Source: a virus (Duplodnaviria; Heunggongvirae; Uroviricota; Caudoviricetes). From it: a stretch of DNA of 39,449 bases. Below, in pieces: positions 27,001 to 30,000 of this stretch. A program made the position numbers. The stretch covers positions 1-39,449 of the IMG/VR virus record IMGVR_UViG_2671180847_000006. One strand, 5' to 3'. Positions within the stretch are counted from its first letter, which is position 1. Each line of letters begins with the position of its first letter.

Positions 27001-30000
27001 CTGCCGTTATCAAAGGGGAGCTTCTGGCGACATATCGTCAGATGGAGCGTGCCGGTATTGTGGAAAATTACGATCTGTTTAAACAGTATCTGATAGTTGA
27101 GCGTGATGCGGATAACCCGAACCGACTGAACACGCTGTTCCCGCCGGATTATGTTAACCAGTTACGTGTCTTTGCGGTGGTTAACCAGTTCCGTCTCCAG
27201 TATTCAGAGGAGTCAGCATAATGGCAAAGATCGCCGGAACCTGTTTTTTTAAAGTGGATGGTCAGCAGTTATCGCTGACAGGTGGCATTGAAGTGCCGAT
27301 GAACACCAATGTCCGGGATGATGTCGTCGGCATGGCTGGTGATGTGGATTACAAGGAGACCTGGCGGTCACCTTACGTTAAGGGCACGTTTAAAGTGCCC
27401 AAAAATTTTCCGGTCGACAAAATTACCACCTCAGACCAGATGACGATTACTGCCGAGCTGGCAAACGGCATGGTGTATGTGCTTTCGGCGGCATGGCTGC
27501 ATGGCGAAGCAAACCATAATGCCGAAGAAGGTACGGCAGATCTTGAATTCCACGGCGAAGAGGGAGGATATCAGTAATGAGCGTGACAGAAATTGTTTTA
27601 AAAAAACCGGTGACAGCGCATAACGAAACGCTGCATGTGCTGGAGTTGCGTGAACCCACGTATGACGAAATCGAGGCCCTGGGTTTTCCTTTCATTATTT
27701 CCGGTGAAGGCAGTATTAAACTGGACAGCCAGGTGGCACTGAAATATATCCCGTTGCTGGCGGGGATCCCGCGTTCATCGGCGGCGCAGATGGCAAAACT
27801 GGATATTTTTAAGACCAGCATGCAGATCCTGCGTTTTTTTACCCAGTCGGAGACGGGAAGCACCTCCGGAAACGACTCTACAATGTTGCCTGGTTCTGGA
27901 AACTGAATCCACTGGAGCTGCGACGGGTGGCTATTTCGCAGTTTACAGAACTGGAAGCCGAGGCCGTCCGCATTAACGAGGAGATGAAGCATGGCTGACA
28001 GTTTTCAGCTGAAGGCGATCATCACTGCCGTGGATAAGGTGTCGGCACCGCTGAAGGGGATGCAGCGCCAGCTGAAAGGTTTTAAAAAGGAGTTTGCCAG
28101 CCTGTCACTGGGCGCAGCGGGTGCCGGAACCGCAGTACTGGGGGCGCTGGCGCTCCCGGTCAAATCTGCCATTGCCCTTGAATCAAAAATGGCGGATGTC
28201 CGGAAAGTGGTGGATGGTCTGGATACGCCGGAAGCGTTTAAGGCAATGACGGAACAGGTGCGCGACCTGTCAACAGAACTGCCCATGTCGGCGGAAGGTA
28301 TCGCCGAAATCGTGGCGGCGGGTGGTCAGGCTGGCATCGCCCGTGACGAGCTGATGCAGTTTACTGACGACGCCGTGAAGATGGGGGTGGCCTTTGACAC
28401 CACGGCGGAAGAATCCGGTCAGATGATGGCACAGTGGCGCACTGCCTTTAAACTGACACAGGGAGAGGTGGCAGGGCTTGCGGACAAGATTAACTATCTT
28501 GGTAATACCGGTCCTGCGAGTGCGAAAAAGATTTCTGATGTTGTGACCCGTATTGGCCCTTTAGGCAGTGTTGCGGGTGTGGCCTCCGGAGAGATTGCCG
28601 CAATGGGGGCAACCATTGCCGGAATGGGGGTGGAATCAGAAATTGCGGCGACGGGGATAAAGAATTTTATGCTGTCGCTGACAGCGGGGAATTCTGCCAC
28701 CAAATCGCAGAAAAAAGCGCTTCGCCTGTTGCGCATTGACCCGAAAAAACTGGCGGCGGATATGCAGAAAGACGCCCGTGGGGCCATGCTGCACGTACTG
28801 GATTCTCTGGCGAAAGTGCCGAAAGAAAAACAGGCTGCTGTGCTTAATGCGCTGTTCGGGAAGGAGTCTCTGGGAGCCATTGCGCCGCTGCTCACGAATC
28901 TGGATTTGTTGCGAACCAATTTTAATCGTGTGGCGGATGCGCAGCAGTATGGCGGCTCAATGCAGAAAGAATATGCCGCCCGTGCCGCGACGACGGAAAA
29001 TCAGTTGTTGCTGCTGCAGAACCAGATCAATGCGATTTCTTCCACGCTGGGGGAAACCTTCCTGCCTTCACTCAATGAAGGCATAAAAGAGATGAAGCCT
29101 TTTCTGGAAGAAGTGCGCACGTTTGTCAGAGAAAATCCTGAGGTCGTAAAAACCATCGCGAAAACTGGAGCGGCATTACTGACGATGGGCGTGGCGATTG
29201 GCACATTGACACGCATAACAAAAATCATGGGTAGCGTGATGAATATGACGCCAGCAAAGGGATTAATTGCGCTTCTTGTCGGTGGCGCATATCTCATAAT
29301 TGATAACTGGGAAATGGTCGGGCCGGTTGTGAAAAAAGTCTGGCAGGAGGTTGATCAGGTTGTCAGAGCAATGGGGGGATGGGAACAGGCAGTAAAAACA
29401 ATAGCAACGGTTTCTGCTCTGTATATTGGTGTGAAGGCGGTGGCAAGTATTCGTGCGGCAACAGTCGCCCAGAATCAATGGACAACGGCGGCAGGAAAAA
29501 CGGCGCTGAAATTAAAGGGGCTTGGGAAGATCAGTCTGATTGGTGGATTGCTTGAACTGGGCATGATGGCGCAGGATTTTGAAAAAGAACATCCCTGGCT
29601 TGTTAAAAATTTTGTGGCTGATGCACTGAACAGTGGATTTGGTCTGAATGATAAGTTCGACGAGTGGGGCAAACAGTTCCATGATTTTGTCTATGACATG
29701 ACCGGATGGCAGATGCCACGTGGTGATGGGTATTTATCTCCAGAAAAACGCTACACCCCGAATGTATCACTGGAAAGGAATCAGCTGTTAAACCTTTCAT
29801 CTTCACCGTCAACCCGCAGCGAACTTAAGGTGACGTTTGACAACGCGCCGCCGGGAATGCGCGTCATCGATTTGCCGAAAACAGGCGATCCCTTTATGAA
29901 AATCACCCATGATGTTGGGTATTCTCCATTTAAAAGGTGAGTTCTTTTTTTGTGGTGAGAGATGAGGCAAAATTATCGCGTAACATGCTAACAATGGAGT

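What the first reader, a model, noticed from the sequence alone, without database searches (positions are those of the whole stretch)
27813..27998. Programmed -1 frameshift in the tail assembly chaperone
A perfect slippery heptamer T_TTT_TTT (27834-27840) lies in the chaperone gene, and the -1 frame is open from there to a stop at 27996-27998, overlapping the tape measure start. This is the conserved G/GT-type arrangement.
Basis: partly seen in the sequence, partly recalled or inferred. Interest (0 to 1): 0.4.

Follow-up and report, generated by a model that had tools for sequence, protein, structure and literature searches.

The report
Tail chaperone -1 frameshift, phage phiP27
The T7 run in the tail-assembly-chaperone gene of this phiP27-type prophage is very probably a genuine -1 ribosomal frameshift site making a 140-aa fusion protein. 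It is an ordinary, well-known phage device (closest proven case: P2 E/E+E') that is missing from the reference annotation.

Summary
Confirmed and ordinary. The window is Stx2e phage phiP27 (99.5% identity).

**Layout.** The order is sheath, tube, chaperone (27577-27906, Pfam PF10109), an 85-nt "gap", then tape measure (27991-).

**The site.** TTTTTTT at 27834-27840 lies in phase as T_TTT_TTT (CG T TTT TTT ACC). The -1 frame is open from 27813 to TGA at 27996-27998, which overlaps the tape-measure ATG (ATGGCTGA).

**Why one sequence is not enough.** The window holds 53 in-phase slippery heptamers, so the decisive evidence is comparative:
- All 7 distinct related phages and 36 of 38 prophage loci keep an in-phase T_TTT_TT(T/C) at the same site, with the extension in the -1 frame.
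- The first Phe codon is TTT in 35/35 sequences, while the second is TTT 16 / TTC 19.
- The preceding codon always ends in T, although its amino acid varies.
- The "gap" evolves as -1-frame coding sequence (synonymous:nonsynonymous 13:4 and 14:4, against 0-2:17-19 in the other frames).
- 25 of 36 sequences have no start codon upstream of the conserved extension motif.

**Other points.** No stimulatory RNA structure was found. P2 E/E+E', the experimentally proven case, has the same geometry, whereas Mu uses -2. The fusion is not annotated in RefSeq or PGAP records. It is a new (unannotated) member of a known kind, of low interest.

The parts
27221..27577 (+). Tail tube gene (118 aa), immediately upstream of the chaperone
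   Evidence: PF10618 Tail_tube, E = 7.6e-34; ORF list
27577..27906 (+). Tail assembly chaperone, zero-frame product (109 aa), the gpG/gpE-like protein
   Evidence: PF10109 Phage_TAC_7, 31.8 bits against cut-off 25. phrog_166 'tail protein', E = 7e-28. PGAP names it 'phage tail assembly protein'.
27834..27840 (+). Slippery heptamer T_TTT_TTT, in phase (CG T TTT TTT ACC)
   Evidence: Conserved as T_TTT_TT(T/C) in all 36 distinct relatives. The first Phe codon is TTT 35/35. The X base is T even though its codon encodes G, R, N, S or V.
27813..27998 (+). Open stretch of the -1 frame. After the slip, 27840-27995 are read as 52 codons (YPVGDGKHLRKRLYNVAWFWKLNPLELRRVAISQFTELEAEAVRINEEMKHG), followed by TGA at 27996-27998. 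The fusion is residues 1-88 of the chaperone plus these 52, giving 140 aa.
   Evidence: Conserved motif Y(N/D)xAx(F/Y)W(K/R)xNP...A.RI..E. Substitutions fall at -1-frame third positions, 16/19 and 17/23. No usable start codon. phrog_32181, E = 6e-6.
27907..27990 (+). The apparent 'intergenic gap' of current annotations, which is actually coding in the -1 frame
   Evidence: Left unannotated in NC_003356.1 and in PGAP E. coli prophages. Synonymous:nonsynonymous is 13:4 and 14:4 in the -1 frame against 0-2:17-19 in the other two frames.
27978..27983 (+). GAGGAG Shine-Dalgarno-like sequence 7 nt upstream of the tape-measure ATG, embedded in the -1 extension (codons ...NEEM...)
   Evidence: Read directly from the sequence; its function is inferred
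27991..29940 (+). Tape measure protein gene (649 aa). Its ATG overlaps the -1 stop (ATGGCTGA).
   Evidence: PF10145 PhageMin_Tail, E = 6e-44
25686..27221 (+). Tail sheath gene (context: a contractile, Mu-like tail module)
   Evidence: PF04984, PF17482 and PF17481

Best explanation
This is a programmed -1 ribosomal frameshift.

**Zero-frame product.** Most ribosomes translating the chaperone mRNA read straight through CGU UUU UUU ACC and stop at 27904-27906. This gives the 109-aa chaperone.

**Fusion product.** A minority slip back one base while two tRNA-Phe occupy UUU (27835-27837, P site) and UUU (27838-27840, A site). They re-pair perfectly on U UUU UU (27834-27839). The ribosome then reads UAC at 27840-27842 and 51 further -1-frame codons, and stops at UGA 27996-27998 on top of the tape-measure start. 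The result is a 140-aa fusion: 88 shared N-terminal residues plus 52 new ones.

**Signal.** The heptamer alone appears to be the signal, because no stimulatory structure was detected.

**Function, by analogy with lambda gpG/gpGT (review PMC5009743).** The shared N-terminal domain would coat the tape-measure protein. The -1 domain would recruit tube subunits so that the tube polymerises to the length set by the tape measure. Both proteins would then leave the finished tail.

**Shown here:** the sequence anatomy, family membership of the N-terminal domain, conservation of site and phase, coding constraint on the -1 frame, and absence of an independent start.

**Inferred:** that the slip occurs on the ribosome, its efficiency, and the assembly role.
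For: - **Anatomy.** It is exactly as described.
- **Context.** The gene order is sheath, tube, chaperone, tape measure, and the chaperone scores above the PF10109 threshold.
- **Phage relatives.** All 7 distinct related phages (720R4, SfIV, ST64B, SfV, AH07, EPP-1, YeP1), down to 36-42% protein identity, carry an in-phase TTTTTT(T/C) at the homologous (G/R/N)FF position. Their -1 ORF ends 5-8 nt past the tape-measure ATG.
- **Prophage loci.** 36 of 38 loci from species-representative bacterial genomes, including Derxia and a Methylococcales MAG, show the same arrangement.
- **Selection on the nucleotides.** The first Phe codon is TTT 35/35, while the second is TTT 16 / TTC 19 (Fisher p = 1e-7; the sequences are not independent). 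Other Phe codons in the same genes are TTT 36 / TTC 24. The codon carrying X is GGT, CGT, AAT, AGT or GTT, so it always ends in T. Third-position T averages 28% in these genes.
- **The 85-nt 'gap' is coding in -1.** 16/19 (phiP27-SfIV) and 17/23 (phiP27-ST64B) differences fall at -1-frame third positions. Synonymous:nonsynonymous is 13:4 and 14:4, against 0-2:17-19 in the other frames.
- **No independent start.** 25 of 36 sequences have no ATG, GTG or TTG in the -1 frame upstream of the conserved FW motif. The only place where a frame change works in every member is -15 to +16 nt around the X base.
- **P2 E/E+E'.** P2 is annotated with a -1 frameshift at T_TTT_TTG. It has the same geometry: shift at GF(L), -1 stop 5 nt past the T-gene ATG, and a 142-aa fusion. 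The P2 site is reported as TTTTTTG in PMC3091744, citing Christie 2002. P2 gpE also belongs to PF10109.
- **Heptamer class.** UUY A-site codons and homogeneous X/Z heptamers are among the more shift-prone classes in E. coli (PMC4066793).
- **Internal control.** The two other in-phase homopolymer heptamers in this tail operon are not conserved in relatives.
Against: - No protein evidence was available, so the fusion is predicted and not observed.
- No stimulatory element was found. Downstream folds have z-scores of -1.3 to +1.0. RNAalifold gave 0 pairs downstream and upstream. There was no Rfam hit.
- In the reporter contexts of PMC4066793, heptamers without a stimulator gave only 2-10 times a background of about 0.05%. 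Efficiency here could therefore be very low, unless the native context helps.
- A T7 run could also support RNA-polymerase slippage, which would give the same peptide.
- The extension does not match Pfam PF06528 (the P2 E' domain) at E <= 1.
- BLASTP against P2 E+E' is not significant, and hhalign is only suggestive (E = 0.0025, probability 12%).
Confidence: 0.9

Rival explanations
1. Transcriptional slippage. RNA polymerase stutters on the T7 run and adds one U to a fraction of transcripts. Standard translation of those transcripts then gives the same 140-aa fusion.
For: Runs of 7 T are homopolymers on which slippage is conceivable. PMC4066793 notes that AAAAAAA and UUUUUUU are under-represented in E. 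coli genes in all three frames, possibly because of transcriptional slippage or indels. The peptide product would be identical, so the sequence cannot exclude this.
Against: 19 of 36 distinct family members have only six T's (TTTTTTC), and P2 has TTTTTTG. From my own knowledge, productive slippage in bacteria generally needs runs of about 9 or more. What is conserved is exactly the X_XXY_YY pattern: the Z base is free to be T or C, both read by tRNA-Phe. That fits tRNA re-pairing rather than run length.
Confidence: 0.05
2. The -1 stretch is an independent small gene, translated from its own start in the gap between the chaperone and the tape-measure gene.
For: Some pipelines call such fragments separately. 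The extension matches phrog_32181 and phrog_11318, small families of 'unknown function'.
Against: In phiP27 the only start-type codons in the -1 stretch are GTG at 27927 and the ATG of ...EEMKHG. Both lie downstream of the conserved YNVAWFWKLNP motif, and the GTG is ACG or GCG in SfIV and ST64B. 25 of 36 relatives have no start codon at all upstream of the motif. The conserved peptide begins directly at the heptamer.
Confidence: 0.01
3. Chance or artefact. The T7 is just two Phe codons and the open -1 frame is accidental, or the split results from a sequencing error or a pseudogene.
For: In-phase slippery heptamers are common (53 in the window), and about 5% of positions have a -1 run of at least 52 codons. 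Homopolymer-length errors do exist in databases: P0006-P0011, P0016 and P0025 show frame-hopping products.
Against: The same split-frame arrangement recurs in 44 independently sequenced phages and prophages, with saturated synonymous divergence elsewhere. There is coding constraint on the -1 frame. Close E. coli relatives at 97-99% identity keep T7 and both frames.
Confidence: 0.02
4. The hairpin plus T-run (27820-27834 followed by T7) is a weak intrinsic terminator or pause site that attenuates transcription into the tape-measure gene.
For: The consensus scan flags ATGCAG-ATC-CTGCGT followed by TTTTTTT as terminator-like. Short hairpins next to the T-run fold in many relatives, with a mean z of -0.9.
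Against: The count equals the shuffle expectation (1 found, mean 1.4). RNAalifold finds no consensus pairs. For two explicit helices, pairing equals the shuffled controls (62.5% against 63.8%, and 25% against 27%) with no covariation. A terminator in the middle of an essential tail operon is also implausible.
Confidence: 0.02

Closest known systems
Phage P2 gpE / gpE+E' programmed -1 frameshift (FETUD tail operon; Christie et al. 2002, cited in PMC3091744)
   Same: - Contractile-tail phage with gene order sheath, tube, chaperone, tape measure.
- The N-terminal domain is in the same Pfam family, PF10109.
- The slip site is T_TTT_TTN at the homologous ...(V/L)(G/R)F(F/L) position, about 86-88 residues in.
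- The -1 ORF stops 5 nt past the tape-measure ATG.
- The fusion is 140 aa here against 142 aa in P2.
- No downstream stimulatory structure was found here, and none is reported for P2 (PMC3091744).
   Different: - Z is T here and G in P2.
- The extension does not match PF06528 (Phage_P2_GpE).
- Pairwise similarity is not significant, and the profile alignment is collinear but weak.
- The rest of the tail module here is Mu-like (DNA_circ_N, GpP-like baseplate), not P2-like.
- The zero-frame tail after the slip site is 21 aa here and 5 aa in P2.
Phage lambda gpG / gpGT (Levin 1993; Xu, Hendrix, Duda 2004, 2013, 2014; summarised in PMC5009743)
   Same: - Two chaperone products made from one start by a -1 slip near the end of the upstream ORF.
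- The genes lie between the major tail gene and the tape-measure gene.
- The proposed roles are the same: the shared domain binds the tape measure and the -1 domain binds the tube subunit.
   Different: - Lambda is a siphovirus.
- From my own knowledge, lambda slips on G_GGA_AAG.
- No sequence similarity to lambda was tested or detected here.
- The lambda ratio of about 30:1 is measured; here the ratio is unknown.
Phage Mu gp41 tail assembly chaperone (-2 frameshift)
   Same: - The Mu-like tail module surrounds the gene (sheath, PF10618 tube, DNA circularisation protein N, GpP baseplate).
- Mu gp41 has a match to PF10109 just below its gathering cut-off (24.7 bits against 25).
- Mu also has a gap (144 nt) before its tape-measure gene.
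   Different: - Mu has no in-phase heptamer.
- The frame open towards its tape-measure gene is +1/-2, not -1. The review PMC5009743 states that Mu uses -2.
- Mu gp41 belongs to PF23746, which the phiP27 protein does not hit.

Membership tests
G/GT-type tail-assembly-chaperone frameshift (lambda G/GT, P2 E/E+E') | The gene pair lies between the major tail/tube gene and the tape-measure gene | tested here: met
   Tube 27221-27577 (PF10618), chaperone 27577-27906 (PF10109), tape measure 27991-29940 (PF10145)
G/GT-type tail-assembly-chaperone frameshift (lambda G/GT, P2 E/E+E') | The downstream ORF overlaps the end of the upstream ORF in the -1 frame and lacks its own start | tested here: met
   The -1 frame is open 27813-27998 and overlaps the zero frame by 94 nt. 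No start codon precedes the conserved motif in phiP27 or in 25 of 36 relatives.
G/GT-type tail-assembly-chaperone frameshift (lambda G/GT, P2 E/E+E') | An in-phase X_XXY_YYZ slippery heptamer lies inside the overlap | tested here: met
   T_TTT_TTT at 27834-27840 is the only in-phase heptamer within the overlap
G/GT-type tail-assembly-chaperone frameshift (lambda G/GT, P2 E/E+E') | Site and frame relationship are conserved among diverged relatives beyond what the amino-acid sequence requires | tested here: met
   All 7 distinct related phages and 36 of 38 prophage loci keep it. First Phe codon TTT 35/35 against second 16/19. The X base is always T across five different amino acids.
G/GT-type tail-assembly-chaperone frameshift (lambda G/GT, P2 E/E+E') | The -1 extension is under protein-coding constraint | tested here: met
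   Third-position bias of 16/19 and 17/23. Synonymous:nonsynonymous of 13:4 and 14:4 in the -1 frame only. Conserved motif.
G/GT-type tail-assembly-chaperone frameshift (lambda G/GT, P2 E/E+E') | The fusion protein is actually made, at a low fixed ratio to the short product | not testable with these tools
   Needs mass spectrometry, western blot or a reporter assay
G/GT-type tail-assembly-chaperone frameshift (lambda G/GT, P2 E/E+E') | Both products are required for tail assembly and are absent from virions | not testable with these tools
   Needs genetics and virion proteomics
Pfam PF10109 Phage_TAC_7 (chaperones E, gp41, gp14) | Whole-protein score above the gathering threshold | tested here: met
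   31.8 bits against 25, E = 1.5e-7, residues 6-75. P2 gpE+E' scores 47.8 bits.
Pfam PF06528 Phage_P2_GpE (E' extension domain) | Match of the -1 extension to the family profile | tested here: not met
   No hit at E <= 1 for the phiP27, SfV or YeP1 extensions, whereas P2 scores 76.3 bits. There is only a collinear, weak hhalign alignment.
Mu gp41-type (-2 frameshift, PF23746) | Match to PF23746, and the extension in the +1/-2 frame | tested here: not met
   No PF23746 hit. The extension is in the -1 frame. Mu itself differs.
-1 PRF with a cis stimulator (dnaX / IS3-type) | A downstream hairpin or pseudoknot 5-9 nt after the heptamer, or an upstream SD-like element | tested here: not met
   Downstream fold z-scores are about 0. 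RNAalifold gives 0 pairs. No Rfam hit. No covariation. No SD-like sequence is visible in the 30 nt upstream.
Programmed transcriptional slippage | A long homopolymer run (about 9 or more, from my own knowledge) whose length rather than phase is conserved | tested here: not met
   The run is 7 here and 6 in 19 of 36 relatives. The conserved unit is T6 in a fixed phase.

The most novel reading that the evidence does not exclude
The stop of the frameshift product sits on or directly beside the tape-measure start. It reads ATGGCTGA here and ATGAGTAA in P2. Overlapping or abutting starts appear in most of the 36 loci, judged by eye from the printed stop contexts.

This placement could be functional rather than mere compaction. 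Ribosomes that have frameshifted would terminate on the tape-measure initiation site and re-initiate there. A share of tape-measure synthesis would then be coupled in cis to synthesis of the fusion chaperone that must bind it.

In addition, the 52-aa extension represents a T-domain family not captured by Pfam. It misses PF06528 and matches only phrog_32181, 'unknown function'.
Probability: 0.12. Interest if true: 0.4.

Novelty: new member of a known kind. Interest (0 to 1): 0.2.

Why it matters
The main value is to annotation.

- The 140-aa fusion chaperone is missing from the phiP27 RefSeq record. It is also missing from the relatives' records that were opened (720R4, SfIV, ST64B, SfV, AH07, EPP-1, YeP1) and from PGAP annotation of E. 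coli prophages.
- In those records the 85-142 nt stretch before the tape-measure gene is left as "intergenic", although it encodes an essential-looking domain.
- The family gives an unusually clean comparative signature of recoding: an invariant T6 at synonymous sites, and a 31-nt window common to all members in which the frame change must occur. This could serve as a benchmark for frameshift finders.
- It also shows that a Mu-like tail module can use the P2-type -1 site rather than Mu's -2.
- None of this changes the understanding of the mechanism.

Tried and rejected
**1. Downstream stimulatory structure.** Single-sequence folds of 60-100 nt after the heptamer in 9 phages gave z-scores from -1.3 to +1.0. 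RNAalifold on 14 members gave 0 pairs. There was no Rfam match.

**2. Upstream hairpin or terminator.** The scan flagged 27820-27834 plus T7, and upstream 26-mers fold slightly better than shuffles (mean z -0.9). However, RNAalifold found nothing. Two explicit helices showed pairing equal to the shuffled controls and no covariation. Rejected as a composition or codon effect.

**3. Independent start for the extension.** Rejected.

**4. Direct similarity to P2 E+E'.** BLASTP is not significant and hhalign is only suggestive. The extension does not match PF06528.

**5. NCBIfam.** No model hits the chaperone, the fusion, or P2 E+E'.

**6. PDB sequence search with the fusion.** No hit at E <= 1.

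**7. Full-length 'fusion' proteins in the protein database (P0001-P0011).** They are not annotated frameshift products. They are either a real S. flexneri indel allele or frame-hopping products typical of homopolymer or assembly errors.

**8. Literature.** No paper in the held library mentions this frameshift for phiP27, SfV, SfIV or ST64B. Christie 2002 (PMC135442) is not held, and Xu 2004 was not read. I therefore cannot exclude that phiP27 is listed in those surveys.

**9. Structure prediction.** Not attempted.
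Full report
**What the window is.** The 1.1 kb around the finding is 99.5% identical to Stx2e-converting phage phiP27 (NC_003356.1 / AJ298298.1). 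It is 95-99.6% identical to prophages in about 50 complete E. coli genomes. The local gene order on the + strand is as follows:
- tail sheath, 25686-27221 (PF04984 / PF17482 / PF17481);
- tail tube, 27221-27577 (PF10618);
- a 109-aa protein, 27577-27906, that scores above threshold for PF10109 Phage_TAC_7 ("tail assembly chaperone proteins E, or 41 or 14"; 31.8 bits against 25);
- an 85-nt unannotated stretch;
- the tape-measure gene, 27991-29940 (PF10145);
- then Mu-type DNA-circularisation and GpP baseplate genes.

**Check of the observation.** Seven T's occupy 27834-27840. The chaperone frame reads CTG CGT TTT TTT ACC, so the run is phased T_TTT_TTT, a perfect X_XXY_YYZ heptamer. The -1 frame has a stop at 27810-27812 and is open from 27813 to TGA at 27996-27998. 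That TGA overlaps the tape-measure ATG at 27991 (ATGGCTGA). A -1 slip would give a 140-aa protein: 88 shared residues plus 52 new ones, YPVGDGKHLRKRLYNVAWFWKLNPLELRRVAISQFTELEAEAVRINEEMKHG.

**Is it more than chance?** From this one sequence, only modestly.
- A crude gene set of the window contains 53 in-phase X_XXY_YYZ heptamers in 11,279 codons.
- 4.9% of codon positions have a -1 run of at least 52 codons.
- Two further in-phase homopolymer heptamers lie in the same operon: T7 at 27244-27250 in the tube gene, where the -1 frame gives an immediate TAA, and A7 at 27600-27606 early in the chaperone gene, where the -1 frame stops at 27621.

These two serve as internal controls below.

**Comparative evidence from phages.** I opened eight phage records: the RefSeq phiP27 record itself plus seven distinct relatives (vB_EcoM-720R4, SfIV, ST64B, SfV, Pantoea AH07, Edwardsiella EPP-1, Yersinia YeP1). 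The fusion proteins of the relatives are 79% to 36% identical to phiP27. All carry an in-phase TTTTTT(T/C) at the homologous (G/R/N)-F-F position. In all of them the -1 frame is open from there to a stop 5-8 nt past the tape-measure ATG. All have an unannotated gap of 85-142 nt that the -1 frame fills.

**Comparative evidence from bacterial genomes.** A scan of species-representative bacterial genomes returned 38 loci, from Enterobacterales, a Derxia and a Methylococcales MAG. In 36 of them the extension is in the -1 frame with an in-phase T_TTT_TT(T/C) in the overlap. The two exceptions come from insect-symbiont assemblies (Arsenophonus, "Ca. Pantoea bathycoeliae") and look like decayed copies. 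Close E. coli relatives keep everything. The one 6-nt indel I checked is in frame, at the chaperone N-terminus.

**Selection acts on the nucleotides, not only on the protein.** Across 36 distinct sequences:
- Conserved Gly, Pro, Tyr, Asp and Leu columns use their synonymous codons freely.
- The first Phe codon of the heptamer is TTT in 35/35. The single odd row is an off-register symbiont pseudogene copy.
- The second Phe codon is TTT 16 / TTC 19, and other Phe codons in the same genes are TTT 36 / TTC 24.
- The codon holding the X base encodes Gly, Arg, Asn, Ser or Val but always ends in T (GGT 26, CGT 3, AAT 3, AGT 3, GTT 1). Third-position T averages 28% in these genes.
- The 60 nt upstream are on average only 45% identical among ten diverse members, yet the T6 is invariant.

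By contrast, the tube-gene T7 and the chaperone A7 of the window are not conserved in relatives, most of which have TGT TAT TTC and varied Lys/Ser/Thr codons.

**The "gap" is coding in the -1 frame.** In the part downstream of the zero-frame stop:
- 16 of 19 differences (phiP27 against SfIV) and 17 of 23 (phiP27 against ST64B) fall on -1-frame third positions.
- Codon changes are synonymous:nonsynonymous 13:4 and 14:4 in the -1 frame, but 0-2:17-19 in the other two frames.
- The extension peptides align without gaps and share Y(N/D)xAx(F/Y)W(K/R)xNP(L/F)E...A.RI..E.
- In the overlap, differences concentrate on -1-frame third positions, which are zero-frame second positions. Downstream of the heptamer it is therefore the -1 frame that is constrained. 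The zero-frame tail is short, variable (3 to about 27 residues) and of low complexity.

**No independent start.** In phiP27 the only start-type codons in the -1 stretch lie downstream of the conserved motif, and the GTG is not conserved. 25 of 36 relatives have no ATG, GTG or TTG at all upstream of the motif. Intersecting "-1 frame open" with "zero frame not yet stopped" over all members leaves a window from -15 to +16 nt around the X base, with the heptamer at its centre.

**Mechanism.** The best reading is tandem -1 slippage of two tRNA-Phe from UUU UUU to U UUU UU, followed by UAC (Tyr).
- UUY A-site codons and heptamers with homogeneous X and Z are among the more shift-prone classes in E. 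coli (PMC4066793). The family uses only Z = T or C.
- I found no stimulator. Downstream folds are no better than shuffles. RNAalifold gives zero pairs downstream and upstream. Rfam gives nothing.
- A terminator-like hairpin flagged just upstream (27820-27834) is not conserved and shows no covariation.
- The lack of a stimulator matches what is reported for P2 (PMC3091744). It suggests a low efficiency, which suits a chaperone pair needed at an unequal ratio. For comparison, the ratio is 30:1 in lambda, and the efficiency is 2-3-fold higher in P2-like phages (PMC5009743).
- Transcriptional slippage cannot be excluded from sequence, because it yields the same peptide. It is disfavoured because half the family, and P2, have only six T's.
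- The assembly role is inferred from lambda: the shared domain coats the tape measure and the -1 domain recruits tube subunits.

**Comparison with known systems.** The nearest characterised case is P2 gpE/gpE+E'.
- It belongs to the same Pfam family, PF10109.
- Its slip site is T_TTT_TTG at the aligned GF(L) position, its -1 stop lies 5 nt past the T-gene ATG, and its fusion is 142 aa.
- The relationship is detectable only at profile level: BLASTP is not significant and hhalign is collinear with E = 0.0025.
- The phiP27-type extension does not match the P2 E' domain family PF06528. It matches only small PHROGs of unknown function.

Although the surrounding tail module is Mu-like, Mu itself differs. 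It has no in-phase heptamer, its extension lies in the +1/-2 frame, it is reported to use -2, and it belongs to a different family, PF23746.

**Novelty and verdict.** The phenomenon is textbook (Levin 1993; Christie 2002; Xu, Hendrix and Duda 2004, as cited). The fusion is not annotated in the phiP27 RefSeq record, in any of the relatives' records I opened, or by PGAP. I found no paper in the held library that mentions it for this phage group. I could not read Xu 2004, which may list it. I rate it a new, unannotated member of a known kind.

Noticed in passing
L053:1501-1935 (S. flexneri LR861788.1), aligned to window 27571-28000; the insertion corresponds to window position ~27866/27867: A widespread Shigella flexneri prophage allele has a single G insertion (CCGG to CCGGG) about 26 nt downstream of the intact T7. 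The protein is P0004, 142 aa, indexed in 754 blocks of the collection including complete chromosomes. The insertion fuses the zero frame to the -1 frame, so the fusion becomes the only product (…RFFTQSETGSTSGKRLYNVAWFWK…). By analogy with lambda, where a balanced G:GT ratio is needed, this prophage is probably tail-defective. Another S. flexneri strain (L013) keeps the normal arrangement.
   Followed up: partly
window 27244-27250 and 27600-27606: There are two further perfectly phased homopolymer heptamers in the same operon. T_TTT_TTT lies in the tube gene (TGT TTT TTT AAA), where a -1 slip meets TAA at once. A_AAA_AAA lies at codons 8-10 of the chaperone gene, where the -1 frame stops at 27621. 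Neither is conserved in relatives, so they look incidental. They might cause a little abortive frameshifting.
   Followed up: yes
window 29941-30536 (ORF 30008-30490, +): A low-GC island (0.35-0.40 against 0.53-0.56 in the flanks) lies between the tape-measure and DNA-circularisation genes. It is bounded by T7 runs at 29945-29951 and 30516-30522. It encodes a 160-aa protein with no Pfam hit and a lipoprotein-like N-terminus (MIKPFLMTVAILTSCC...). It looks like a moron inserted into the tail operon.
   Followed up: partly
window 27447-27992, minus strand: A 181-aa antisense ORF spans the whole chaperone gene and the extension. My greedy gene picker even preferred it to the real genes. It is most likely a shadow ORF of the two overlapping sense frames. 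It was not examined further.
   Followed up: no
L011:4553-5132 (phage Mu gp41 to gp42): Mu has no in-phase slippery heptamer in gp41. The frame that stays open towards the tape-measure gene is +1/-2 (4950-5117, ending 17 nt before the ATG), consistent with the -2 shift cited in PMC5009743. Related Mu-like tail modules therefore use different recoding types.
   Followed up: partly
P0006-P0011, P0016, P0025, P0043, P0049 (protein database hits): Several database 'proteins' of 119-158 aa cover the fusion. They arise from T5/T6 run-length variants or from hopping through the +1 frame and back (for example ...RFLPSRRREAPPETTLQCC...WFWKLNP...). They are probably homopolymer sequencing or assembly errors, or decayed copies. 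They illustrate how this locus confuses gene callers.
   Followed up: partly
L018 and L024 (Arsenophonus endosymbiont; MAG 'Ca. Pantoea bathycoeliae'): These are the only two of the 38 loci in which the extension is not in the -1 frame (same frame after a gap, or +1). Both come from insect-symbiont assemblies and are likely pseudogenised prophage remnants.
   Followed up: no
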